Source: a virus. From it: DNA of 34,343 nt. The stretch lies in UHGV virus genome UHGV-0071249, one strand, 5' to 3'. Both the position numbers and the translations under genes were made by a program. Below, one piece after another: positions 1,915 through 34,343 of this stretch. Numbering within the stretch: position 1 is the first letter of the stretch; the number at the start of each line of letters is the position of its first letter. The notes below the pieces were generated by a model. That model did no database searches. It had not been told where the DNA came from and worked only from the letters and a program-made list of their open reading frames with translations.

Positions 1915-2278
1915 TCACCGCATTTGAACGTGTTTTTGATGGTTCTCCACTAAATATCTCTAGGTTCATTACTTGGAGATATTAATCGTGTTAGATTGGG
2001 TAATTACTTCTGCTGGAGCTACATCATCGGATTTATCATTTTGGTAACGGGGTTTATCAAGTACGTGTTACTTGGATGGATTCTGTACCTACTAATTATG
2101 GTAGTTTTATGGGTTATCGCCCGTATTTGGCTATGATTCCGAAAACAAAATACTAAATAGATATGTAGCAAGTGACATTACTACACAAAGATCTTCGAAA
2201 TTTGGGACGTTTCAAAATAATATGATATAATATAGCTATCGAAGATAAATATTTCCATAATCTCCAATGATATTTTAG

Positions 2279-2303
2279 CCCTATGGCAATCATAGGGTTT
2301 TTC
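2279..2303 (+). terminator. Intrinsic terminator-like hairpin (CCCTATG-GCAAT-CATAGGG followed by TTTTTC)
   Basis: 7-bp perfect stem, 5-nt loop and T-run read directly from the sequence; lies about 50 bp upstream of the ribbon-helix-helix gene. Confidence 0.4.
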
Positions 2304-2351
2304 TTTGGATTTGGGAAAGCATAAAAAGAATTCTTTTCAAAAGGAGAAAAC

Positions 2352-2504
2352 ATGAAGGAATTGAAATCACATCCTGTGAGCGTAAAACTAAATGATACTC
2401 AAGTAAAGCTACTTGAAAAACTAATACAAGAAGGAAAAGCGAAAACTAAAGCAAGTGCGATACAGTACCTAATCAATCAGTACTCAATACTAAAAAGTAA
2501 GTAA
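2352..2504 (+). CDS. Ribbon-helix-helix (CopG/Arc/MetJ-like) DNA-binding protein, 50 aa; absent from the ORF track
   Basis: ATG at 2352 preceded by AAGGAG (2341-2346); translation MKELKSHPVSVKLNDTQVKLLEKLIQEGKAKTKASAIQYLINQYSILKSK has the beta-strand/helix/helix pattern of ribbon-helix-helix regulators; stop TAA at 2502-2504. Confidence 0.6.
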   Translation: MKELKSHPVSVKLNDTQVKLLEKLIQEGKAKTKASAIQYLINQYSILKSK

Positions 2505-2591
2505 TAAACAACGTTTGATACTATCGTAAAAAGTATTATCTCTTTGTACTGGCAAGGAATGCCAAGTACAAAATATCATGGATGAACCACA

Positions 2592-3083
2592 ATGAAAAAA
2601 ATAAATGACCTAAAAGGCCAGGTATATCTACACCTATATAAAGAAGCACTACAGAAATGGCATAGTATGCATTCAAGACTAAAACGCATTGGTTATCAAA
2701 ACACAACTATTTGTGATGAATGGTATACTTTCAGTAACTACTACAACTGGTACATAGAAAATAGTATTAGTGGTTGGGATGTAGATAAGGATATATTAGG
2801 AGCTAACCACTATTCACCAAACACTTGTATGTTCGTACCACACGAAGTAAATCAATTATTCAGAGGTGGTTACGGTAAACATAAGAAGGGAGTACAGAAG
2901 GTTTTCAATAGTTGGGTAGCTAAATCAACTTACAACGGTGTACAGGAGTATTACGGTACATTCAAAACAGAAGATGAAGCACACCAGGCATATCTTACAC
3001 ATCGCCGTATTTGTATAGTGAATCTAGCAACTAAGTATAGTAACTATCCAGTGCTTAGTATAGCACTACTAAACAGCAAGTAA
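2592..3083 (+). CDS. HNH_3-like / AP2-domain DNA-binding protein (homing-endonuclease-like, HNH probably degenerate)
   Basis: Segment DKDILGANHYSPNTCMFVPHEVNQ resembles the phage HNH_3 core but lacks the first catalytic His; C-terminal GVQKVFNSWVAKSTYNGVQEYYGTFKTEDEAHQAY matches the AP2 DNA-binding consensus. Confidence 0.5.
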   Translation: MKKINDLKGQVYLHLYKEALQKWHSMHSRLKRIGYQNTTICDEWYTFSNYYNWYIENSISGWDVDKDILGANHYSPNTCMFVPHEVNQLFRGGYGKHKKGVQKVFNSWVAKSTYNGVQEYYGTFKTEDEAHQAYLTHRRICIVNLATKYSNYPVLSIALLNSK

Positions 3084-3090
3084 TAAAAAA

Positions 3091-3119
3091 AGGCACTTGG
3101 TCTTACTCACCAAGTGCCT
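3091..3119. terminator. Hairpin terminator (10-bp stem AGGCACTTGG / CCAAGTGCCT) flanked by an A-run and AT-rich tail
   Basis: Perfect inverted repeat 3091-3100 / 3110-3119 immediately after the stop at 3083; A6 upstream and AATTAATT downstream, so it could act in either direction. Confidence 0.5.
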
Positions 3120-3151
3120 AATTAATTAACATCATTTATAAGGTATTTATC

Positions 3152-3637
3152 ATGGCAAACATAGAGAAACCACACGATAACCGTGTAGTACAGAAAGAAG
3201 TAAAAAACATCAAATTCAAAGAACTATCACATGAAGCAGTGGAGGCAATCAATGAGGCTATACAGGGATGTAAATCACTTGGACGTAATAAAGTAGACTC
3301 ACAAGAAATTTATGAAGTTATTCGTAAGTGTGACTACATTACAAGAGCTAATACTCTGTACACTATAAACATTATGCGTAGTACGGGGGCTATCACCAAA
3401 TCACAACTACAGGGTAAATCACAGGAGGATAAGTATAAGACTGTCTCTAAGCTCGTTTCACAGGCTCTAGAGCTACTAATAGTACTGGGCATTCCCCTAA
3501 AAGGTTCAATGAAGCGTGTCGTAAATCAGGTAGCAGGTAAGCAACTGGACGAGCAGCAGCAAAAGGTGTTAGAGGAAAAAGTGAAATCAGGCGTCCCGAT
3601 TAACGATCTAATCAAGTATCTATCGGGATTAATCTAA
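3152..3637 (+). CDS. Hypothetical early protein (161 aa)
   Basis: ORF with AAGG ribosome-binding site 8 nt upstream; no family recognised. Confidence 0.65.
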   Translation: MANIEKPHDNRVVQKEVKNIKFKELSHEAVEAINEAIQGCKSLGRNKVDSQEIYEVIRKCDYITRANTLYTINIMRSTGAITKSQLQGKSQEDKYKTVSKLVSQALELLIVLGIPLKGSMKRVVNQVAGKQLDEQQQKVLEEKVKSGVPINDLIKYLSGLI

Positions 3638-3642
3638 AAGCA

Positions 3643-3719
3643 TTAGCACATAATAGCCCAGACATATGTGCTAATTATGGGCTAATGGGTTAATGATGTA
3701 TGGGCTAATGGGTTAATGA
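3643..3719. repeat. Inverted repeat (TTAGCACATA / TATGTGCTAA) followed by two tandem copies of a 21-bp unit TATGGGCTAATGGGTTAATGA
   Basis: Inverted repeat at 3643-3652 / 3665-3674; tandem units at 3676-3696 and 3699-3719; the loop motif TAGCCCA is the reverse complement of TGGGCTA inside each unit. Confidence 0.6.
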
Positions 3720-3887
3720 AACACTACATATAGTGTCTAATCCATTGTTTTATTGGTATATTTTGTGGTTTTTTAGTAATTGTATGGGGAGTTGTGGCAT
3801 TAGCCCCCCTTATATTAATATTATTCTTTCATTCTTACTTTGAAAGTATATTTGTCTTACTTATATCTAGTCTCTAGAGAGCCTAAC

Positions 3888-3996
3888 TTCGCTTTGCTCG
3901 TTAGTCTCTGTAAAAACCAAATATAAGATCGTAACTTTGCGTTTTTCTCGCTATCGCGTCGAAAACTCGCAAGCGTTTTTCTCGCTTTGCTCGTAC
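3888..3996. repeat. Iteron-like direct repeats (GCGTTTTTCTCGCT twice; CGCTTTGCTCGT twice) in a non-coding region
   Basis: Direct repeats at about 3938/3973 and 3890/3983, read from the sequence; the overlapping minus-strand ORF 3857-4102 is judged spurious. Confidence 0.4.
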
Positions 3997-4251
3997 TTGT
4001 CAGTACTGTCAAAGTAACAAAACCCCAATAGCTACTACCAAAGTAATTAATCAAAGTATTCGTGAGTCGCCACGGAGTCACGCCCGAACGAGCCACCCGC
4101 ACACACCGGCCAAGTCGGATTATTGCTTAAGTAGTCATGGCAGTATAACGAATGCAACGGTACTTAATGAAATACTTGATAAGAAGGCCGATTTATATCA
4201 GAAACTGTTACCATATGCGGTATCGACATAATTCCTATGTACTACGATGAA

Positions 4252-4965
4252 CTATACATAAAATAATTCTTGGAATTTATATGTTCTAATTTTTTCATGG
4301 ATACATTTTCCTTGATAATAAGAGGAAAGAGCTTCGCCATAATTTACTTTGAAATGATGCCCAAAGAGTGCGAAATATCTTTCATCATTTATAAATTCAG
4401 ATAATGCATTTCTTAGGTTAAAAGTAGCATTCGATAAAGACATAATTGTCATTTGATAAGTATCAAGCAGTTGATATATTTCCTTTTCCTTTAGTATTGT
4501 CACATCCCAACGTTTTAATGATGAAAATTTAGAATGCGTATCCTGCAATCTCAATTTGTTATTTTCAATTAATACTCGTAACTCATCAAGTGATTTTATT
4601 ACTCTATTCCTGTCTGCTTGATTGTCAAAGATGTTAGATCGATAGTAGATTTCAGCTTCAGCTAAACTATCTATATAAGAGTTATGGGTGGCAGAAAAAG
4701 TATCAATTTCATTAAGTATAGCTTCAGCTTTTTCCAAACCTAATGTTCGTGTTTTTTCTGATAACCAATTTTTTGCATTAACAGCGGCATATAATGCCGC
4801 CCCGGCCATTATAGCATTACAAAATGTGGATACCCAATCGGAGACACTACCCCATTCAAACCCCTTACTGCCAGAAAATAAAAATTTAACAAGCACCAGT
4901 ATTGCTACCCATAAGAGTATAAGAACAGTAAAAATCAATGCGGTATTATATTGTTTAACTTTCAT
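4252..4965 (-). CDS. Two-TM membrane protein, paralogue A (candidate superinfection-exclusion or abortive-infection protein)
   Basis: N-terminal hydrophobic helix (ALIFTVLILLWVAILVLV), second helix AIMAGAALYAAVNAKNWLSEK, then about 170 aa with coiled-coil character; antisense to the phage operons; paralogous to 32551-33258. Confidence 0.65.
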   Translation of the reverse strand: MKVKQYNTALIFTVLILLWVAILVLVKFLFSGSKGFEWGSVSDWVSTFCNAIMAGAALYAAVNAKNWLSEKTRTLGLEKAEAILNEIDTFSATHNSYIDSLAEAEIYYRSNIFDNQADRNRVIKSLDELRVLIENNKLRLQDTHSKFSSLKRWDVTILKEKEIYQLLDTYQMTIMSLSNATFNLRNALSEFINDERYFALFGHHFKVNYGEALSSYYQGKCIHEKIRTYKFQELFYV

Positions 4966-5175
4966 TTGTTTAAACTTTCAATAAAGGATTTTTACGGGCA
5001 TTCTACCATTTTGTGATTGGATTAGTAACTGTTGTTTGAAGGTTATCATTATCATAACTTAACTTAGGGTTAAGTGCTGCTAAAATTAAATCAGAAATTT
5101 TATGCGGTTTTATTTCCCATTTATGTCAAAATTGATAGTAGTATGGGGAGTCTATACAAAAAGTAGGGATTACTG

Positions 5176-5622
5176 ATGGATACAGTAGAAGAACTTAATG
5201 GAACATACTTCTATGATGGTTCATCCAATCTTAGTGCAGGGGAGCTATTCTTCTGGATCATGGTTGATGAAACATTAGATCACTTTGGTATATCAGACAT
5301 AGCCGCAGTTGCAGGGATCTACCTTGGTTCGAATAATGTCACGGTAGCAGGTAAGCTGGCAGGGGCAACACCCGGCACATCCGTTGTGTCAATCTATTCC
5401 AGGGAATTATTCAGAGGACGAATGATGCCAGTACGAATGGCAACTTGGATTGGATTCCCGCCAAATGCAAAACGAGTTATGACACAGCGATTGGGTACAT
5501 TCGTTGGCAGGACTATTCCTCTTGTCGGTTGGATTGTACTCGCAGCAGACGTTTCTATCATCAGTTTCAAAGCAGTCAATAAGTACAATACAATCGCCCA
5601 TCCTTCAGATCGTCTATGGTAG
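5176..5622 (+). CDS. Small protein with two glycine-zipper-like hydrophobic segments (148 aa); candidate Hcp-associated cargo
   Basis: Segments DIAAVAGIYLGSNNVTVAGKLAGATPG and TIPLVGWIVLAADVSIISF; first gene of a tight three-gene set ending in Hcp. Confidence 0.55.
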   Translation: MDTVEELNGTYFYDGSSNLSAGELFFWIMVDETLDHFGISDIAAVAGIYLGSNNVTVAGKLAGATPGTSVVSIYSRELFRGRMMPVRMATWIGFPPNAKRVMTQRLGTFVGRTIPLVGWIVLAADVSIISFKAVNKYNTIAHPSDRLW

Positions 5623-5629
5623 GTACTGA

Positions 5630-5986
5630 ATGAACGATTCAGATAACATAGAGCAGCAGGTCATGAATTGGTATAACGAGAACTGGAATGGGCGTGTTTT
5701 TCCATTTTTCAGGAAGCCATCATTGACGCTGGAAACAAGCCTATCAACAGGCAAGTATCCTTGGGCAGATGAAGATGCGATAGAGATACTTGATGATTAC
5801 TTTGGGAAGTTCAATGTTGAGCGTAAAAATTTCACATTTGGCAAGTACTGGCCCAATGAAGAAGTAGTACTTCCATTGAATTTTTTACGATCAAAAGATA
5901 ATAAATGGGAATGGATTGAACCAGAACCATTAACACTCAAAATGCTTGTCGAATCAGCTAAGGCTGGTCGCTGGCTTTACGATTAA
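5630..5986 (+). CDS. Small acidic Trp-rich protein (118 aa); candidate immunity or adaptor protein
   Basis: Starts 7 bp after the previous stop; W-rich (NWYNENWNG, KYPWADED, KWEWIEPEP); no family assigned with confidence. Confidence 0.55.
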   Translation: MNDSDNIEQQVMNWYNENWNGRVFPFFRKPSLTLETSLSTGKYPWADEDAIEILDDYFGKFNVERKNFTFGKYWPNEEVVLPLNFLRSKDNKWEWIEPEPLTLKMLVESAKAGRWLYD

Positions 5987-5998
5987 AAGGAGTTTTCA

Positions 5999-6484
5999 AT
6001 GGCAATCCCCGCACACTTATGGCTTAAAGATGATGGTGGAGCATTAATTAAGGGATCATGCGATGTAATGGATCGAGAGGGAAGTGTGGAAATTATTGGT
6101 TTCGGTCATGGCCTACATATTCCTACCGATAATAATACTGGTAAAATTACTGGAACTCGAATCCATACACCGATGGTATTAGAAAAGGAATTTGATAGCT
6201 CTACACCGTATCTCTATAAAGCAGTTGCTACAGGGCAATCGCTTAAAAGTGCCGAAATTAAATGGTACAAGATTAATGATGCAGGCCAGGAAGTAGAGTA
6301 CTTCAATATGCTTCTTGAAGGTGTCAAAGTCGTTGCTGTAACCCCGATAATGTACAATACAAAGACCGTTGAAAAATGTAACCACATGGAGCGTGTAGAA
6401 TTACGCTACGAAAGAATTACATGGAAGTACTGTGACGGTAATATCCAGTATACTGATGCGTGGAATGAACGAGCGACAGCATAG
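5999..6484 (+). CDS. hcp: Hcp (TssD) family type VI secretion tube / effector-chaperone protein
   Basis: 161 aa; N-terminus MAIPAHLWLKDDGG...IKGS.DV.DREGS and later segments (TGK.TGTR.H.P, PYLYKAV.TGQ.LKSAE.KWY.INDAGQEVEYF, LRYE.ITW, WNER) match my recollection of enterobacterial Hcp1 sequences; perfect AAAAGGAG ribosome-binding site 6 nt upstream. Confidence 0.75.
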   Translation: MAIPAHLWLKDDGGALIKGSCDVMDREGSVEIIGFGHGLHIPTDNNTGKITGTRIHTPMVLEKEFDSSTPYLYKAVATGQSLKSAEIKWYKINDAGQEVEYFNMLLEGVKVVAVTPIMYNTKTVEKCNHMERVELRYERITWKYCDGNIQYTDAWNERATA

Positions 6485-6486
6485 TT

Positions 6487-6509
6487 AAAAGGGGCATGTA
6501 CCCCCTTAA
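6487..6509. terminator. Hairpin (AAGGGG-CATGTAC-CCCCTT) between the convergent hcp and 4-TM genes
   Basis: Stem-loop read from the sequence; TTTT follows 3 nt downstream on the plus strand; overlaps the stop codon of the minus-strand gene. Confidence 0.45.
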
Positions 6510-7195
6510 CTTTTATGGCTTTCGTATGTTGGCTCTCGAAATTTAAATATGTGATGTTTCTTACCCATCGAAATAAATTCCTGCGATACTGTTTTACGAC
6601 AAGAAAATACAGTAATAGGAACTGATAGAGAATAAATCACAGTGGAGAGTAATACTATGAGAGGGTAGTGAGAACTAATTAAAATAAGAGACGTAATGAA
6701 ACAAGCAAGCCATAGCATAATCATAAAAGCACTAAGGAATGTGTTTATATTAGAAACCGAGGGACGAAGGTCGTTTATGGTTTTATAGAAAAGCACTTTA
6801 TATAAATTCCCTGTAACATAATATTCTAATTTATCAATTACTAACTCCCAGTTTTCTTGCCAATATTTGCTACCGATATTCACATAATAGAAGCATATTG
6901 AAAATACGGTTCCAATTATTGATATGAATGGTGTATAGGTGATATATTCCGTATGTGTGAAAAGATAACCATAGGCAGCAGTTATAACTGTGAAAAAAGC
7001 AAAAAAATAAGTTGCTCGCTTCCAGTACAAATCAATCTCAAATTTTCTTATATCATGAGCTTTATCCAGTGCGGCTATTAGTTTTTTATGATCTAAAGAA
7101 TCTTCCATAATAATTGTACTGACACCCAAGAATTCTTGGAAAAATTCTTTATCCTCATCTTTTATTACAAATGGTTCTTTTTTTGTATTATCCAT
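6506..7195 (-). CDS. Integral membrane protein with about four TM helices (229 aa), function unknown; candidate immunity or defence effector
   Basis: Soluble N-terminal 60 aa, then hydrophobic helices (FFAFFTVITAAYGYLF; FISIIGTVFSICFYYV; FLSAFMIMLWLACFITSLILI; LIVLLSTVIYSLSVPITVF) with a YWQENWE linker; convergent with hcp. Confidence 0.6.
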   Translation of the reverse strand: MDNTKKEPFVIKDEDKEFFQEFLGVSTIIMEDSLDHKKLIAALDKAHDIRKFEIDLYWKRATYFFAFFTVITAAYGYLFTHTEYITYTPFISIIGTVFSICFYYVNIGSKYWQENWELVIDKLEYYVTGNLYKVLFYKTINDLRPSVSNINTFLSAFMIMLWLACFITSLILISSHYPLIVLLSTVIYSLSVPITVFSCRKTVSQEFISMGKKHHIFKFREPTYESHKS

Positions 7196-8164
7196 AATTT
7201 ATTCTTACAAGATAAAAGGCCAGTATACAATCAGATTTCACTCTCTGTATACTACGCGAAAGTACTCCCCCTTGCTAATGGGTAGGTTTGTTGGGTGTAA
7301 GGGGGTAGTACTCAAAACGGCAGTTCTTCTTGTCCACAAAATCAACCATCTTCATGAAGCCTTGAAATTTCCCTCACCAGATAAGTTAACCCTTCCAGTA
7401 CTGAAGCGATCGGGTACTCCATGATCAAGTAGAAGCAACCTCGCTGAACTGTACCGAATCAGTACTTCCTTTGTCCATTCTGGAAGAAAACACGATCACC
7501 AAATGCAAACTTGTCCAGTACTGAACCGTAGTAACAAACCCTGAATTCACGCTCGCCGTGGGTGAAGGTTTGTACCCCTCGGACGATTGCTGGATCGTAG
7601 CCATTTTTACTCATTTGATGCTCACCATAGGTGTAATGAATATGCATACAGCACGCCTATGTGTTTTTAAAAATCCAGCAAATCACAATCTATCGATAAA
7701 ACTGTTCAAAAATGCATTGAATGATCTATAAAAGTGATCAATATTGATGACTTACGGTCAAATGAGGTCATTAAATGAACATCCAGTACTGGGCTGTACC
7801 GATTACGACTCTTAATGGGCAGTTGCTCGGAGTGGAAATCCAGCCGCAGATAGAAATACACGGCTGTCGGCTCATTGCTGGGGATGTACTGAAGTGGCAA
7901 CTACACGTAACGGAGTGAAGTATTACCGGCCTCAGTTCCAGAGTGATTGCGGTCGCATCTATAATCCAATCTACCAGATGGACAATGGCAGTACTACGTG
8001 TCTAATACGCGAGGAAAGGATTCAAGAATGTATTAATATAGCTAAACAATTATTGAGGTCAAATCATTAATTGATTAAATATATTGGTCATGGTAAAAAT
8101 AATTGAATTACATATGATATCCTCATGCTACTGGTGCTAATAACATAGCATGAGGATATATACT

Positions 8165-9286
8165 TCAACGCACCATGGCTAATGTTCTGGAAATTCGCAT
8201 GATTTCTTTTTCAATATCATCTAAAACAGGTAGTGATTTTCTGCTTCGTTCAGCAATTTCTTGCAATATATATCTGTTCAAATAATTGTTTACATTTTTA
8301 GGATCAAGATTTTCAGGTGTGGGAACAACACAACATTGCCAATAAAAAATCTCATCTTCGAAATGAGTTAGCCATTTGGAGTGATATCTTTCTTTCGATT
8401 TTTTCTTATTAAGCACATAAATGCTGGCTGCAGCTATCACATCAGCAATTTGTATACCATGCGTGACTTTAGAATCAGAAAGGATTATGGGCTCAGATAG
8501 TTTGAATGTGATCGGGATTTTTTTATTATTAAAGGTCTCGAACACAATTTCATCATTACCTATCATCTCATTGAATGCGTCTTGTTGGGTAATTAATGGT
8601 TTTGAACTATCACATATAGCTCTCAATGTACCAAACTTACTACTCATATCGCATAAGAGATTATAAAGAGAAGTCGTTGTCAAATCTAACAACCATTTAT
8701 CAACCCCAGTGCCCTCGAGACCTTCATATTCCTCTTCAATTATTGAAATGTTATGCTTGGCGAAATCATGAATGTCCATCATAATTTCAGAGTTTTTAGT
8801 ACCAATAACTGGTTCGATAAAACTATTAACTAATATTTTACCTCGTGAAAAATCTTCAAATCGAGAATGCAATAGTTCAGAATACTCATCCTTAGCTATT
8901 AAAGAAAAATACATTATATTGGATATGAATAGGTGGAATTTAAGGTTGTAAAATATTGAGCTTTTAGCTGCTAATACTGGCTCGAAAATATATTCAAAGA
9001 ATTTTCCTGAAAGGGCATATTTCTTTTCGTTAACAACCACACGCATACGTCCACGGAAATGATTAAGTATCTCATCTACGGCTGGTTGTAATCTCTTGCT
9101 ATTAACGAGAGTGCTACCTTTTAGCTCTTCGGCTGCGATCGAGTACTTTTGTATTATGTAATCTACAAACTGTTTACTTTCCTCTTCATCAGTCACGACT
9201 GCAGCGTAACTAAAAAAAGGCTGATCTTTTGAAAGTAAGTTATTACCTGTAAACCCTGATTCGTCGAAGTAGACATTTTTTACCAA
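8165..9286 (-). CDS. DUF3800-like protein (373 aa), antisense cargo gene immediately upstream of the late operon
   Basis: N-terminal VYFDESG and C-terminal GIQIADVIA motifs, which I recall as the two signature motifs of DUF3800; TTG start with GAAGGA ribosome-binding site about 9 nt upstream. Confidence 0.6.
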   Translation of the reverse strand: MVKNVYFDESGFTGNNLLSKDQPFFSYAAVVTDEEESKQFVDYIIQKYSIAAEELKGSTLVNSKRLQPAVDEILNHFRGRMRVVVNEKKYALSGKFFEYIFEPVLAAKSSIFYNLKFHLFISNIMYFSLIAKDEYSELLHSRFEDFSRGKILVNSFIEPVIGTKNSEIMMDIHDFAKHNISIIEEEYEGLEGTGVDKWLLDLTTTSLYNLLCDMSSKFGTLRAICDSSKPLITQQDAFNEMIGNDEIVFETFNNKKIPITFKLSEPIILSDSKVTHGIQIADVIAAASIYVLNKKKSKERYHSKWLTHFEDEIFYWQCCVVPTPENLDPKNVNNYLNRYILQEIAERSRKSLPVLDDIEKEIMRISRTLAMVR

Positions 9287-9495
9287 TTTGGATATTCCTT
9301 CTTGAACGGCAATGTGTATGTGCTTGCAATGTTACATTGTAATAATGATCAAGTAAAATGAAATGTAAGTGCTTTTAATCAACCTAATTAAGTGAAACTA
9401 ATAATTTAGGTACTCCTCCAGCCTGATTATCAACGCGAGTTTTCGGCACCGATTGCTTTCAATTGTATGTGACATTTTAGATGTACACAAAACAT

Positions 9496-15901
<6,406 letters not shown>

Positions 15902-30855: not shown

Positions 30856-31308
<453 letters not shown>

Positions 31309-33285: not shown

Positions 33286-34128
33286 TTAAACCAGTTCTTG
33301 TGTTATTACTGTTTCGAAGTAATGATTTACTACATCAGCTATACCAGTTTCAGTATTGTTACCTATTACTAAATCAGCACAGGCTTTTACTTCATCAACC
33401 GCGTTACCCATAGCAACACCCAAGCCAGCATTTTTCAACATGCTTAGATCGTTGTAATTATCACCAAAGGCTATTACCTGGCTCATAGATAAACCTTGTG
33501 ATTCTACCCATTGTGCCAGGCGTTTACCCTTACTGTTTCCGGCTTGTGCTATGTCTACTTGATCGTGCCAAGACCATTCGCAAGCAAGGCCAAGCTCACG
33601 CTCTACTATCTGACCAAAGCTATGTAGTTTTTCAGTATCAGAATCAGTAAGGGCGAATTTCCAGATAGCATCAACATTTTGCGATGCTTCACTAAGAGAG
33701 GGTACTTGTTTGAAGATTGGACGTTGTGACTCTGGAAGAGACTTAGCCCAATTTTCTGTACGGATAATATGCCCCGTTGGTTCTTGATAGAACATGACAT
33801 CATCGGCATACATCAGACTATGAACATTGTAACTATCAAGTAGGTTCACTAATTGAATAGCTTGTTCTGGTTGTAATGGGTCTGAGGCAATAACTCTTTT
33901 TTCGGCGTAATCGTACAATAAAGCACCATTACAACATATAGCTGGTGTATTAAGTTCTAATGCCTGATAAAAAGGATGGATGGCTACAAAGTGCCGTCCG
34001 GTAACTATGACAACCTTTGCCCCTGATTTACGGGCATTCTGTAGGGCAGATAGTGAGGCTGGTAAGATAGTTTTTTCTGGCGTCAATAAAGTGCCGTCCA
34101 GATCAAGGGCGATTACCTGATAGTTCAT
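33286..34128 (-). CDS. Host Cof-type HAD-superfamily (HAD-IIB) sugar/phosphate phosphatase
   Basis: MNYQVIALDLDGTLL (DxDGT motif I), VIVTGRH, and C-terminal GDNYNDLSMLKNAGLGVAMGNA (motif IV); AGGTGA ribosome-binding site before ATG 34128; more G+C-rich than the prophage. Confidence 0.8.
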   Translation of the reverse strand: MNYQVIALDLDGTLLTPEKTILPASLSALQNARKSGAKVVIVTGRHFVAIHPFYQALELNTPAICCNGALLYDYAEKRVIASDPLQPEQAIQLVNLLDSYNVHSLMYADDVMFYQEPTGHIIRTENWAKSLPESQRPIFKQVPSLSEASQNVDAIWKFALTDSDTEKLHSFGQIVERELGLACEWSWHDQVDIAQAGNSKGKRLAQWVESQGLSMSQVIAFGDNYNDLSMLKNAGLGVAMGNAVDEVKACADLVIGNNTETGIADVVNHYFETVITQELV

Positions 34129-34343
34129 GTAGTGATTCACCTGATTTTGGTATGTAGTTTCCTCGATAGTACACCGCTTTGCGGCTACGACGAAACAAGG
34201 TGAAGAGTCTTGTTGAGCACTGGAACAGCGTTGGATACTGGCGTATTGCCTTGGATGGGCGTAAATATTGTAATTAGCAATACACACTCAAATAGGTGCC
34301 ATTACAGCAAATAGCAGGTGTATCCAGCGCCAGCGCCTGATAA

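What the first reader, a model, noticed from the sequence alone, without database searches (positions are those of the whole stretch)
3643..3996. Clustered inverted and tandem repeats after the early genes (operator- or origin-like)
A 10-bp inverted repeat with a 12-nt spacer is followed within 2 bp by two tandem 21-bp units sharing the TGGGCTA motif (3676-3719). About 170 bp further on are two pairs of direct repeats (GCGTTTTTCTCGCT and CGCTTTGCTCGT, 3888-3996) and a local G+C-rich patch (4060-4110). Organised repeats like these usually mark protein-binding arrays such as operators, iterons or a packaging site.
Basis: seen in the sequence. Interest (0 to 1): 0.4.

Follow-up and report, generated by a model that had tools for sequence, protein, structure and literature searches.

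The report
Binding-site array for an orphan phage regulator
The repeats are real and conserved. They are most likely the DNA binding sites of the uncharacterised 161-residue protein encoded just upstream, placed to control a promoter-like AT-rich box, and they are followed by a separately conserved pair of hairpins of unknown role.

Summary
The window is a complete prophage of about 34 kb and 37% G+C in Enterobacter, with no recognisable repressor, Q or replication genes.

The repeats lie in a 478-bp gene-free block (3638-4115) that follows the 161-aa gene in every relative, including relatives only 26-29% identical.

**Part 1 (3642-3809).** This is a set of 11-bp sites, TATG(G/T)GCTAAT. They start 5 nt after the stop codon, occur in both orientations, and keep base-exact positions. 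One further copy abuts an AT box that reads as a -10 element on both strands. The motif changes between lineages (GGTTAT, GGTAAT, ATAACCGTAAC, CATCTTTCCGAC). It tracks the 161-aa protein, not the ribbon-helix-helix protein, the AP2/HNH protein or the small terminase.

**Part 2 (3860-3994).** The "direct repeats" here are arms and loops of two conserved hairpins. Their stems change compensatorily and they fold better on the minus strand.

**Best reading (0.55).** This is an operator and promoter region for a new DNA-binding family. A conserved minus-strand terminator upstream of the gene suggests convergent antisense transcription.

**Main rival (0.2).** An iteron-type replication origin.

The protein fold has no significant solved relative.

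The parts
3091..3119 (-). Intrinsic terminator that works on the minus strand: an 11-bp G+C-rich stem followed by T7 on the minus strand. It lies between the AP2/HNH-like gene and the 161-aa gene.
   Evidence: One search lists it as a minus-strand terminator. One search shows an A-run followed by a hairpin at the same place in all 13 relatives examined, including the distant ones. The stems differ in sequence but stay paired, and no T-run follows on the plus strand.
3152..3637 (+). Gene for the 161-aa orphan protein, the inferred binder of the sites.
   Evidence: It is a real protein family: homologues range from 97% down to 26% identity with a protein-like substitution pattern. There is no Pfam, PHROG or PDB sequence match. 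The AlphaFold2 model has pLDDT 86 and is all-alpha. Its clades match the site-motif classes.
3642..3719 (.). Distal site array. Sites: s1 3642-3652(-), s2 3653-3663(-, 9/11 match), s3 3665-3675(+), s4 3676-3686(+), s5 3699-3709(+), plus GGGTTAATGA half-copies at 3687-3696 and 3710-3719.
   Evidence: The offsets from the stop codon (5, 15, 32, 43, 66, 74) are the same in 12 relatives that carry three different motif sequences.
3721..3736 (.). Near-palindrome ACACTACATATAGTGT. It is a perfect 14-bp palindrome, CACTACATGTAGTG, in L013. It may be the site of a second factor.
   Evidence: it is kept in lineages with different 11-mer motifs. No binder has been assigned.
3783..3809 (.). Promoter-proximal sites: a degenerate plus-strand copy TATGGGGAGTT (3783-3793) and an inverted copy ATTAGCCCCCC (3799-3809).
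   Evidence: The inverted copy switches motif with the array in every lineage: AATAACCCCCCC in clade B, ATAACCGTAAC in L025 and L028, CATCTTTCCGAC in L027.
3810..3830 (.). AT box TTATATTAATATTATTCTTTC. It carries -10-like hexamers on both strands. On the minus strand, TAATAT (3817-3812) lies 2 nt from the proximal site.
   Evidence: In the relatives read through this junction, the minus strand reads TA(T/A)AT(T/A)-AA-site. On the plus strand, several relatives read site-TTAA-TATAAT.
3860..3927 (-). Hairpin 1: a long imperfect stem-loop whose apical loop carries (plus strand) TTCGCTTTGCTC.
   Evidence: (I1). On the minus strand 93% of cells are paired. Five to seven pairs are G.U on the minus strand, which would be C.A mismatches on the plus strand. 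Pairs switch between U-A and U.G among relatives, and the apical stems differ compensatorily.
3939..3986 (-). Hairpin 2: GCG-TTTTC...GAAAA-CGC at 3939-3970, followed by a duplicate of its 5' arm at 3973-3986.
   Evidence: The structure is kept in 12 loci with changes such as TTTTC/GAAAA to TTCC/GGAA to TTTTG/CAAAA. The minus-strand fold is more stable in 8 of 12 loci.
3982..3993 (.). Second copy of the loop motif TCGCTTTGCTCG, 93 nt from the first copy at 3889-3900.
   Evidence: A related copy, CTCGCT(T/C)T(C)GCTC, lies at 90-93 nt spacing in L013, L025 and L027.
3995..4118 (.). Distal conserved stretch: the CAGTACTG palindrome, three CAAAGTA repeats (4009, 4038, 4052), the G+C-rich patch (4060-4110) and a small hairpin, CCGGC-CAA-GTCGG (4106-4118). 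The module boundary is at about 4114.
   Evidence: homology with L009 stops at 4114; in most relatives read, this stretch ends at the ribosome-binding site of the first downstream plus-strand gene..

Best explanation
The block at 3638-4115 is the cis-regulatory region of a mobile control module made of a ribbon-helix-helix gene, a variable homing-endonuclease-like gene, the 161-aa gene and the non-coding block.

**What the sites are (inferred).** The 11-bp repeats are DNA operators for the 161-aa protein, a previously undescribed all-helical family.

**How it works (inferred).**
- The protein binds co-operatively to the distal array, which sits on 11-bp (one helical turn) spacing straight after its own stop codon.
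- It also binds the proximal site or sites that abut the AT box.
- The AT box is a promoter core. On the minus strand the proximal site would cover about +1 to +11. On the plus strand it would fill the -35/-10 spacer. Occupancy would therefore shut transcription in both directions, probably helped by a loop of about 100-130 bp to the distal array.
- Plus-strand transcription would run through the conserved leader into the downstream genes and on towards the structural operon. That operon is itself guarded by a terminator at 9498-9530.
- Minus-strand transcription would run antisense across the 161-aa gene and stop at the conserved terminator at 3091-3119. That would give a mutual-inhibition switch.

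**The second repeat cluster.** It is a separate, more strongly conserved module of two hairpins. These appear to act as single strands of minus-sense (RNA, or single-stranded DNA). Their role is not resolved.

**Shown versus inferred.**
- Shown: conservation, co-variation of motif and protein, base-exact geometry, the terminator, and the hairpin pairing statistics.
- Inferred: binding by the 161-aa protein, promoter activity and its direction, and repression rather than activation.
For: **The sites are kept in place while their sequence changes.**
- Four exact and several degenerate copies of one 11-mer are clustered here and occur nowhere else in 34 kb.
- The layout is identical to the base in 12 relatives. 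The motif is GCTAAT, GGTAAT or GGTTAT by lineage. In relatives with 26-29% protein identity it is ATAACCGTAAC or CATCTTTCCGAC, again placed straight after the stop codon and again abutting the AT box.

**The sites follow the 161-aa protein.**
- L011 has the window's type of ribbon-helix-helix and AP2 proteins but the clade-B 161-aa protein and clade-B sites.
- W and L009 have identical sites and identical 161-aa proteins, but small terminases only 59% identical, different integrases and different downstream genes.

**The copies behave as DNA sites, not RNA arms.** Copies differ by a G/T transversion at position 5, and this is shuffled among copies between loci. That fits a tolerant protein site and does not fit RNA pairing.

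**Transcription signals sit next to the sites.**
- A -10-like hexamer lies at a fixed 2 nt from the proximal site on the minus strand. Several relatives have a perfect TATAAT 4 nt from it on the plus strand. In L027 an inverted pair of sites brackets the box.
- A minus-strand terminator is conserved just upstream of the gene in all relatives.

**A homologue in a virulent phage shows the same association.** In the jumbo phage RaK2 the homologous gene is also followed at once by direct and inverted repeats.

**The module moves as a unit.** W 2226-4114 is shared at 96.7% identity with a prophage that has a different integrase.
Against: - No experiment or expression data were available. DNA binding by the 161-aa protein is inferred only.
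- The gene and its sites are adjacent, so their co-variation could reflect linkage rather than recognition.
- -35 elements are weak or absent on both strands, and the consensus scan did not list the AT-box promoters in the window at its threshold.
- The two hairpins fold better on the minus strand, but no conserved sigma-70 promoter that would transcribe them on that strand was found. Part of the block is therefore unexplained.
- An array of repeats next to an AT-rich stretch is also the signature of an origin, and the prophage has no recognisable replication genes.
Confidence: 0.55

Rival explanations
1. Replication origin. The 11-mers are iterons for the 161-aa protein acting as initiator. 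The AT box and the T-rich 9-mers after it are the unwinding element. The minus-strand hairpins are single-strand initiation (primosome or primase) signals, as in IncQ oriV or ColE1-type replicons.
For: - The order is an array of repeats, then an AT-rich stretch, then strand-specific hairpins.
- G.T-tolerant hairpins on one strand fit single-stranded DNA as well as RNA.
- The 9-mer TTATTCTTT of the AT-rich stretch is expanded about 20-fold in L019 without loss of the rest.
- The 34-kb prophage has no recognisable initiator, helicase or primase.
- Co-variation of initiator and iterons is classical for lambdoid O/ori (established knowledge).
- L025 has a perfect DnaA box, TGTGGATAA, between the array and the AT box.
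Against: - The proximal site sits at a fixed 2-4 nt from a TATAAT-like hexamer in the relatives read through this junction, and in L027 sites bracket that hexamer. This is promoter geometry.
- A conserved minus-strand terminator upstream of the gene is a transcription feature that the origin model does not need.
- No DnaA box is present in the window.
- The protein is small, all-helical, and unlike winged-helix Rep or lambda O proteins.
- The sites are 11 bp, contiguous and in both orientations, rather than iterons of about 20 bp on 22-bp spacing.
- A homologue sits among baseplate genes of a virulent jumbo phage.
Confidence: 0.2
2. RNA-level device. The inverted and direct copies after the stop codon act as alternative RNA hairpins (attenuator or terminator-antiterminator) in the read-through transcript of the 161-aa gene. 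No protein binds the DNA.
For: - s1 can pair with s3, s4 or s5, giving mutually exclusive hairpins. The RaK2 homologue shows the same direct-inverted-direct pattern.
- The arms s1 and s3 change together between lineages.
Against: - Copies differ by G/T transversions that would break pairing: L012 has three mismatches between s1 and s3, and L014 has two.
- There is no U-tract after any alternative hairpin.
- A further copy lies 90-130 bp away next to the AT box, in inverted orientation and at fixed spacing, which an attenuator does not explain.
- No Rfam family matches, even at E=10.
Confidence: 0.07
3. Packaging region. The block is the cos site of this phage, which has a gpA-type terminase. 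The G+C-rich patch is cosN, and the repeats are cosB-like sites for terminase or an accessory protein.
For: - The large terminase belongs to the lambda gpA family.
- No G+C-rich candidate lies directly upstream of the small terminase gene.
- The block is far more conserved than the flanking genes, as cos sites can be.
- L012's patch contains ACGGGGCGGCGAC, identical to lambda cosN over 13 nt (the lambda sequence is from memory).
Against: - The patch is 5.4 kb from the small terminase gene, with opposite-strand cargo genes in between.
- The lambda-like string is seen in only one relative, and the window's patch is not among its own best matches.
- The sites do not track the small terminase.
- No contig of a relative ends in the block.
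Confidence: 0.05
4. Structural or segregation role. The protein and its array form a centromere-like or nucleoid-organising complex, with no role in promoter control or in initiation.
For: - Short repeats on one-turn spacing next to the gene of a small DNA-binding protein resemble type Ib/II plasmid centromeres (established knowledge).
- A homologue with adjacent repeats exists in a virulent jumbo phage.
Against: - No ParA/ParM-type ATPase is present in the prophage.
- The element is integrated.
- The fixed apposition of a site to a -10-like box is not explained.
Confidence: 0.05

Closest known systems
Lambdoid immunity modules (cI/cro with the tripartite operators OR and OL)
   Same: - A DNA-binding protein gene and its multi-copy operators travel together as a mosaic cassette.
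- Operator sequence and protein change together between heteroimmune relatives.
- Sites overlap the promoter core, and a second cluster about 100 bp or more away allows looping.
   Different: - The protein is unrelated: no HTH_3 domain, no S24 autocleavage domain, no Pfam hit at all.
- The main array lies after the stop codon of a gene that points the same way as its target genes, not between divergent genes.
- Sites are 11 bp on contiguous one-turn spacing, in an arrangement of two inverted then several direct copies.
P2/186-type switches (C or CI repressor, direct-repeat operators flanking the -10 of Pe, convergent promoters)
   Same: - The location next to the integrase gene.
- Short repeated half-sites placed around a -10 element.
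- Specificity classes among relatives.
- Convergent transcription as part of the switch.
   Different: - Here the regulator gene is on the same strand as the lytic or structural genes.
- The proposed antisense transcript covers the whole regulator gene and ends at a dedicated terminator.
- The proteins are not homologous.
Lambda Q with its binding element in PR' (qut) upstream of the late genes
   Same: - A small helical protein gene just upstream of its site.
- On the plus-strand reading, the site lies in the -35/-10 spacer.
- The position is upstream of the structural operon, which is preceded by a strong terminator (9498-9530).
- Cargo genes are inserted downstream of the promoter, as in Stx phages.
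   Different: - There are several sites plus a distal array rather than a single element.
- No promoter-proximal terminator could be identified in the leader.
Iteron origins (lambda O/ori, plasmid Rep-iteron replicons, IncQ oriV with ssiA/ssiB hairpins)
   Same: - An array of repeats, then an AT-rich stretch, then strand-specific hairpins.
- Repeat sequence and adjacent protein co-vary.
   Different: - One site is fixed against a TATAAT-like hexamer.
- Repeats are 11 bp, contiguous and in mixed orientation.
- No DnaA box in the window.
- The protein is unlike known initiators, and no helicase or primase partner is present.
Antisense transcripts of phage switch genes (lambda OOP against cII, P22 sar against ant)
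   Same: A dedicated intrinsic terminator on the strand opposite a regulatory gene implies a convergent non-coding transcript.
   Different: - The predicted RNA would be about 700 nt and cover the whole gene, whereas OOP is 77 nt and sar is 69 nt.
- Its existence here is inferred only from the conserved terminator and the AT-box hexamer.

Membership tests
Lambdoid CI/Cro-type repressor with operators | The repressor has an HTH_3 (Cro/C1) DNA-binding domain, usually with an S24 (LexA-like) cleavage domain. | tested here: not met
   No Pfam family at E<=0.01 for the 161-aa protein. Nothing meaningful at E<=10 across 15 members. No PHROG match.
Lambdoid CI/Cro-type repressor with operators | Multiple operators that overlap promoter elements and co-vary with the repressor among relatives. 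| tested here: met
   Five motif classes match five protein clades. One site is fixed 2-4 nt from a -10-like hexamer.
Q antiterminators (PF03589, PF06530, PF06323) | Sequence or fold membership in one of the three Q families. | tested here: not met
   [not shown]
Q antiterminators (PF03589, PF06530, PF06323) | A binding element at the late promoter, followed by a promoter-proximal pause and a terminator that is read through. | tested here: inconclusive
   On the plus-strand reading the site lies in the promoter spacer. No intrinsic terminator was found in the leader, except a weak W-specific hairpin at 4106-4118. A strong terminator lies 5.7 kb downstream, before the small terminase gene.
Iteron-type replication origin | Direct repeats bound by a cognate initiator, next to an AT-rich unwinding element. 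| tested here: inconclusive
   The repeats and an AT-rich stretch (17% G+C at 3810-3869) are present. Whether the protein is an initiator cannot be told from sequence.
Iteron-type replication origin | The initiator belongs to a known Rep, lambda O or DnaA-like family, or host DnaA boxes are present. | tested here: not met
   No family hit for the protein. No DnaA box in the window's block. One relative, L025, has TGTGGATAA.
Lambda-type cos site | A cosN-like sequence adjacent to sites that co-vary with the small terminase, close to the terminase genes. | tested here: not met
   The best match to GGGCGGCGACCT in the window has 3 mismatches and lies outside the block. The sites are identical in W and L009 while their small terminases are 59% identical. 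The distance to the small terminase gene is 5.4 kb.
Any described RNA family (Rfam 15) | A covariance-model match at or near the gathering score. | tested here: not met
   No match at gathering thresholds in the whole window. At E<=10 on 3000-4400, none of the five weak matches overlaps 3638-4115, and all are far below gathering.
Ribbon-helix-helix operator (Arc/Mnt/CopG type) for the 50-aa protein | The sites co-vary with the beta-strand residues of the ribbon-helix-helix protein. | tested here: not met
   The identical beta-strand HPVSVKL occurs with GCTAAT sites (W, L021) and with GGTTAT sites (L011).

The most novel reading that the evidence does not exclude
The module may be a self-contained lysis-lysogeny or late switch of a new kind. 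Its parts would be:
- a DNA-binding protein with a new fold;
- a bidirectional promoter gated by that protein;
- a full-length antisense transcript of the regulator gene, ending at a dedicated terminator;
- a strongly conserved pair of minus-sense hairpins whose displayed loop (minus strand GAGCAAAGCGA) is complementary to a second copy of the motif in the plus-strand leader 93 nt away. The hairpins could then act in trans on the leader as a regulatory RNA.

This would replace the missing CI/Cro/Q functions in a prophage lineage that has none of them.
Probability: 0.15. Interest if true: 0.75.

Novelty: new variant of a known kind. Interest (0 to 1): 0.5.

Why it matters
- This prophage lineage is widespread in the Enterobacter cloacae complex. 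The exact 161-aa protein is indexed in 476 blocks of the public collection.
- The prophage carries type VI secretion and defence-like cargo.
- No sequenced phage isolate is close, and the lineage has none of the textbook control genes.
- Assigning its only conserved non-coding block to a specific protein gives a testable entry point to how these prophages are kept silent and induced.
- It defines a new family of phage DNA-binding proteins with at least five natural specificity classes. Those classes form a ready-made set for studying how recognition evolves.
- The near-identical hairpin module, shared by elements whose proteins are only 27% identical, is a candidate for a new cis-acting or RNA element.

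Tried and rejected
**Searches that found nothing**
- DNA similarity of 3100-4300 to phage, plasmid and E. coli collections gave no match.
- Rfam gave no match, and there is no tRNA or tmRNA.
- The structure prediction from close homologues only was unusable (pLDDT 44). A deeper alignment fixed this.
- Fold searches were uninformative for function. BFVD returned only uncharacterised phage proteins. The afdb50 library was unavailable.
- PHROG scans of downstream genes in relatives returned orphans.
- RNAalifold on MAFFT alignments of all hairpin types returned no structure, because the arms were misaligned. I replaced this with per-sequence folds and a hand-specified structure on the alignable subset.

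**Ideas rejected**
- Ribbon-helix-helix or AP2 protein as the binder: rejected on the L011 natural swap.
- AGTACT palindromes in the block as specific sites: rejected, because AGTACT is enriched across the whole prophage.
- The lambda-cosN match: rejected as general evidence, because it is confined to L012.
- The C6 run as an R-loop or terminator element: rejected. It is part of the site in the window's clade and is absent in L025 and L028.

**Search left open**
- A conserved sigma-70 promoter that would transcribe the hairpins on the minus strand was not found.
Full report
**Setting**

The window is a complete, low-G+C prophage of the Enterobacter cloacae complex. It is about 37% G+C against about 52% in the flanking host DNA.

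- The left junction lies in a host Cof-type HAD hydrolase gene next to modABC.
- The phage carries its own copy of that hydrolase at 33286-34287(-), 62% identical to the host fragment.

Gene order:

| Coordinates | Feature |
|---|---|
| 61-1914 | large serine recombinase |
| 1996-2136 | small membrane peptide |
| 2352-2504 | 50-aa ribbon-helix-helix-like protein |
| 2592-3083 | AP2/HNH-type homing-endonuclease-like protein |
| 3152-3637 | 161-aa orphan protein |
| 3638-4115 | gene-free block |
| about 4250-9290 | about 5 kb of cargo: DUF8209, DUF1493, Hcp, 8xMP, DUF3800 |
| 9531-30017 | small terminase through tail |
| 30386 onwards | lysozyme, a GIY-YIG gene, a holin-like gene |

Nothing resembles CI/Cro, Q or replication proteins. 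The large terminase is only 33% identical to that of the nearest sequenced phage. The lineage is therefore uncharacterised.

**The observation**

- The inverted repeat (3642-3652 / 3665-3675) and the two 21-bp units (3676-3696, 3699-3719) are copies of one 11-mer, TATG(G/T)GCTAAT.
- There are four exact copies in 68 bp and none elsewhere in the window.
- Degenerate copies lie at 3653-3663(-), 3687-3696, 3710-3719 and 3783-3793. Another inverted copy lies at 3799-3809.
- TCGCTTTGCTCG occurs twice against 0.04 expected.
- The G+C patch (62%) is the local maximum.

**Conservation**

The exact 161-aa protein is indexed in 476 blocks of the public collection. Nine of the ten places examined are the same prophage at 99.9% identity.

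- **L009**, the tenth place, has a different integrase, insertion site and downstream genes. It shares window 2226-4114 at 96.7% identity, and the non-coding part is nearly identical in the alignment. The control genes and the block therefore move as one cassette, with its right edge at about 4114.
- **Relatives at 66-87% protein identity** (L011-L014, L016-L018, L020-L024): each of those with gene calls keeps a gene-free gap of 466-701 bp after the gene.
- **Relatives at 26-29% identity** (L025 in Salmonella with a tyrosine integrase, L027 in Citrobacter, L028 and L029 from metagenomes) keep gaps of 640-930 bp.

**The sites**

In twelve relatives the copies sit at the same offsets from the stop codon: 5(-), 15(-), 32(+), 43(+), 66(+), 74(+). 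One inverted copy lies 133-162 nt downstream.

The motif changes by lineage, and all copies change together, including the distant inverted copy:

| Lineage | Motif |
|---|---|
| W, L012, L016, L019, L021, L024 | GCTAAT |
| L022 | GGTAAT |
| L011, L013, L018, L020, L023 | GGTTAT |
| L025, L028 | ATAACCGTAAC |
| L027 | CATCTTTCCGAC |

These classes coincide with clades of the 161-aa protein.

- L011 is a natural swap. Its ribbon-helix-helix protein differs from the window's at one C-terminal residue and its AP2 protein is closely similar, but its 161-aa protein and its sites are clade B.
- W and L009 have identical sites but small terminases only 59% identical.
- Copies within a locus differ by a G/T transversion at position 5, and this is shuffled between loci. 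That fits a tolerant protein site and does not fit RNA pairing.

I therefore take the 11-mers to be DNA sites of the 161-aa protein. The caveat is that the gene and its sites are adjacent, so linkage alone could produce the association.

**The protein**

- The family is real: homologues run down to 26% identity and are full length.
- It has no Pfam, PHROG or PDB sequence relative.
- With a deeper alignment AlphaFold2 gives a confident all-helical model: pLDDT 86, pTM 0.71, seven helices.
- BFVD finds an uncharacterised protein of the virulent jumbo phage RaK2. There too the gene is followed at once by a 36-bp direct repeat with an inverted partial copy between the two units.

The link between this gene family and repeats straight after the gene therefore extends beyond temperate phages.

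**Transcription signals**

- The proximal site abuts an AT box (3810-3830).
- On the minus strand, in the relatives read through this junction, the sequence is TA(T/A)AT(T/A), then AA, then the site. A start about 7 nt downstream would fall inside the site.
- On the plus strand several relatives read site-TTAA-TATAAT, often with a TTG-type -35 element 16-18 nt upstream.
- In L027 an inverted pair of sites brackets the box.
- -35 elements are weak, and the consensus scanner did not list these promoters at its threshold. Promoter activity is therefore inferred.
- Between the upstream gene and the 161-aa gene, all relatives carry an A-run followed by a G+C-rich hairpin. Its stem differs in sequence but stays paired, and no T-run follows on the plus strand. 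This makes it a terminator for the minus strand. It implies conserved transcription antisense to the 161-aa gene, most simply starting from the AT box.
- A strong plus-strand terminator that sequesters the ribosome-binding site lies directly before the small terminase gene.

**The second repeat cluster**

The segment from the AT box to about 4115 is a distinct module. It is nearly identical at the DNA level between elements whose proteins are only 27-29% identical (W and L025; L013 and L027).

*Hairpin 1 (3860-3927)*
- It has a conserved architecture.
- In W, L013, L018, L022, L025, L027 and L028 it has a conserved loop, TCGCTTTGCTC.
- Its stems differ compensatorily.
- It folds better on the minus strand in 9 of the 10 loci first tested (W: -33.6 against -21.5 kcal/mol), and again in most of the 12 segments refolded later.
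- Counted over 12 loci, 54 pairs are G.U on the minus strand. Only 6 one-by-one mismatches would be G.U on the plus strand.
- In the alignable subset, 93% of cells are paired and several pairs switch between U-A and U.G.

*Hairpin 2 (3939-3970)*
- It is kept in 12 loci, with changes such as TTTTC/GAAAA to TTCC/GGAA to TTTTG/CAAAA.
- It is more stable on the minus strand in 8 of those 12 loci.

The CGCTTTGCTCGT pair is the loop of hairpin 1 plus a second copy 93 nt away; the spacing is 90-93 nt in relatives.

These features point to a minus-sense single-stranded element, either RNA or DNA. I found no conserved sigma-70 promoter that would transcribe it on that strand, so its role is open.

In most relatives read, the block ends at the ribosome-binding site of the first downstream plus-strand gene. 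In the window that gene has been replaced by cargo.

**Weighing the explanations**

- **Operator and promoter region (0.55).** Base-exact site geometry against a -10-like hexamer, the bracketing pair in L027 and the conserved terminator are all transcription features. They favour this reading for the first cluster.
- **Iteron origin (0.2).** This is the main rival. It gains from the AT-rich stretch, the strand-specific hairpins, the L019 expansion of TTATTCTTT and the absence of replication genes.
- **RNA attenuator, cos site and centromere readings.** These are weaker, for the reasons given under the rival explanations.

**Novelty**

The kind of thing is familiar: a regulator with cognate, co-varying operators in a mosaic control cassette. 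Three aspects have no described counterpart that I could find with these tools:
- the protein family;
- the placement of the array after the stop codon of a gene that points the same way as its targets;
- the implied full-length antisense transcript, together with the strongly conserved minus-sense hairpin module.

Noticed in passing
whole window; for example 7261-7522 holds 5 copies in 260 bp: - The palindrome AGTACT occurs 73 times against 12-13 expected from dinucleotide shuffles. Its core GTAC occurs 280 times against 131.5 +/- 10.8.
- The copies fall in all three reading frames and in non-coding DNA, so codon usage does not explain them.
- The host flank has none in 2.8 kb.
- Relatives are GTAC-rich too, but differ in the flanking bases (L012 has no AGTACT at all).
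- CATG is depleted, and AAGCTT, CAGCTG and AGGCCT are absent.
- The pattern suggests selection at the DNA level, for example a modification target or a recognition signal.
   Followed up: partly
L019:6655-6830 (equivalent to window about 3820): In one close relative the 9-mer TTATTCTTT of the AT box is expanded to about 20 tandem copies directly after the -10-like hexamer. The rest of the block is intact.
   Followed up: no
9498-9530: A strong intrinsic terminator, GTCCTCCTGA...TCAGGAGGAC followed by T6, ends one base before the ATG of the small terminase gene. Its 3' arm contains the ribosome-binding site. The structural operon looks gated by antitermination or by translational unmasking.
   Followed up: no
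1-60 and 33286-34287: The prophage sits inside a host Cof-type HAD hydrolase gene next to modABC. It carries its own low-G+C copy of that hydrolase (62% identical over the overlapping part), apparently replacing the part it displaces.
   Followed up: partly
2592-3083 and the equivalent position in relatives: The gene between the ribbon-helix-helix gene and the 161-aa gene is variable. It is AP2-only, HNH_3 plus AP2, NUMOD4 plus HNH_3, an unrelated gene of about 200 aa, or an unrelated 96-aa gene. It behaves like a free-standing homing-endonuclease insertion rather than part of the control circuit. A GIY-YIG gene at 30880-31308 is a second such insertion.
   Followed up: partly
7196-8164: About 1 kb with no ORF over 64 aa lies between the 8xMP and DUF3800 cargo genes. 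It is locally 45-53% G+C and rich in AGTACT. It may be a degraded gene or another non-coding element.
   Followed up: no
L030:3454-3590 (Klebsiella phage RaK2, after ORF075): The jumbo-phage homologue of the 161-aa protein is followed at once by a perfect 36-bp direct repeat, CCCAGTATTCATGCGGGTTGTAGGAATTAGGGACAC. An inverted copy of its last 13 bp lies between the two units.
   Followed up: partly
L012:5913-5925: The G+C-rich patch of one relative contains ACGGGGCGGCGAC, which matches the lambda cohesive-end region over 13 nt (lambda sequence recalled from memory). The match is not shared by the window or by the other relatives.
   Followed up: yes
4252-9286: The cargo between the control block and the terminase genes includes an orphan Hcp with DUF1493 and DUF8209 partners, an 8xMP membrane protein and a DUF3800 protein. 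Relatives carry different sets, including SMODS- and OLD-family genes. This position is a hot spot for accessory or defence genes.
   Followed up: no
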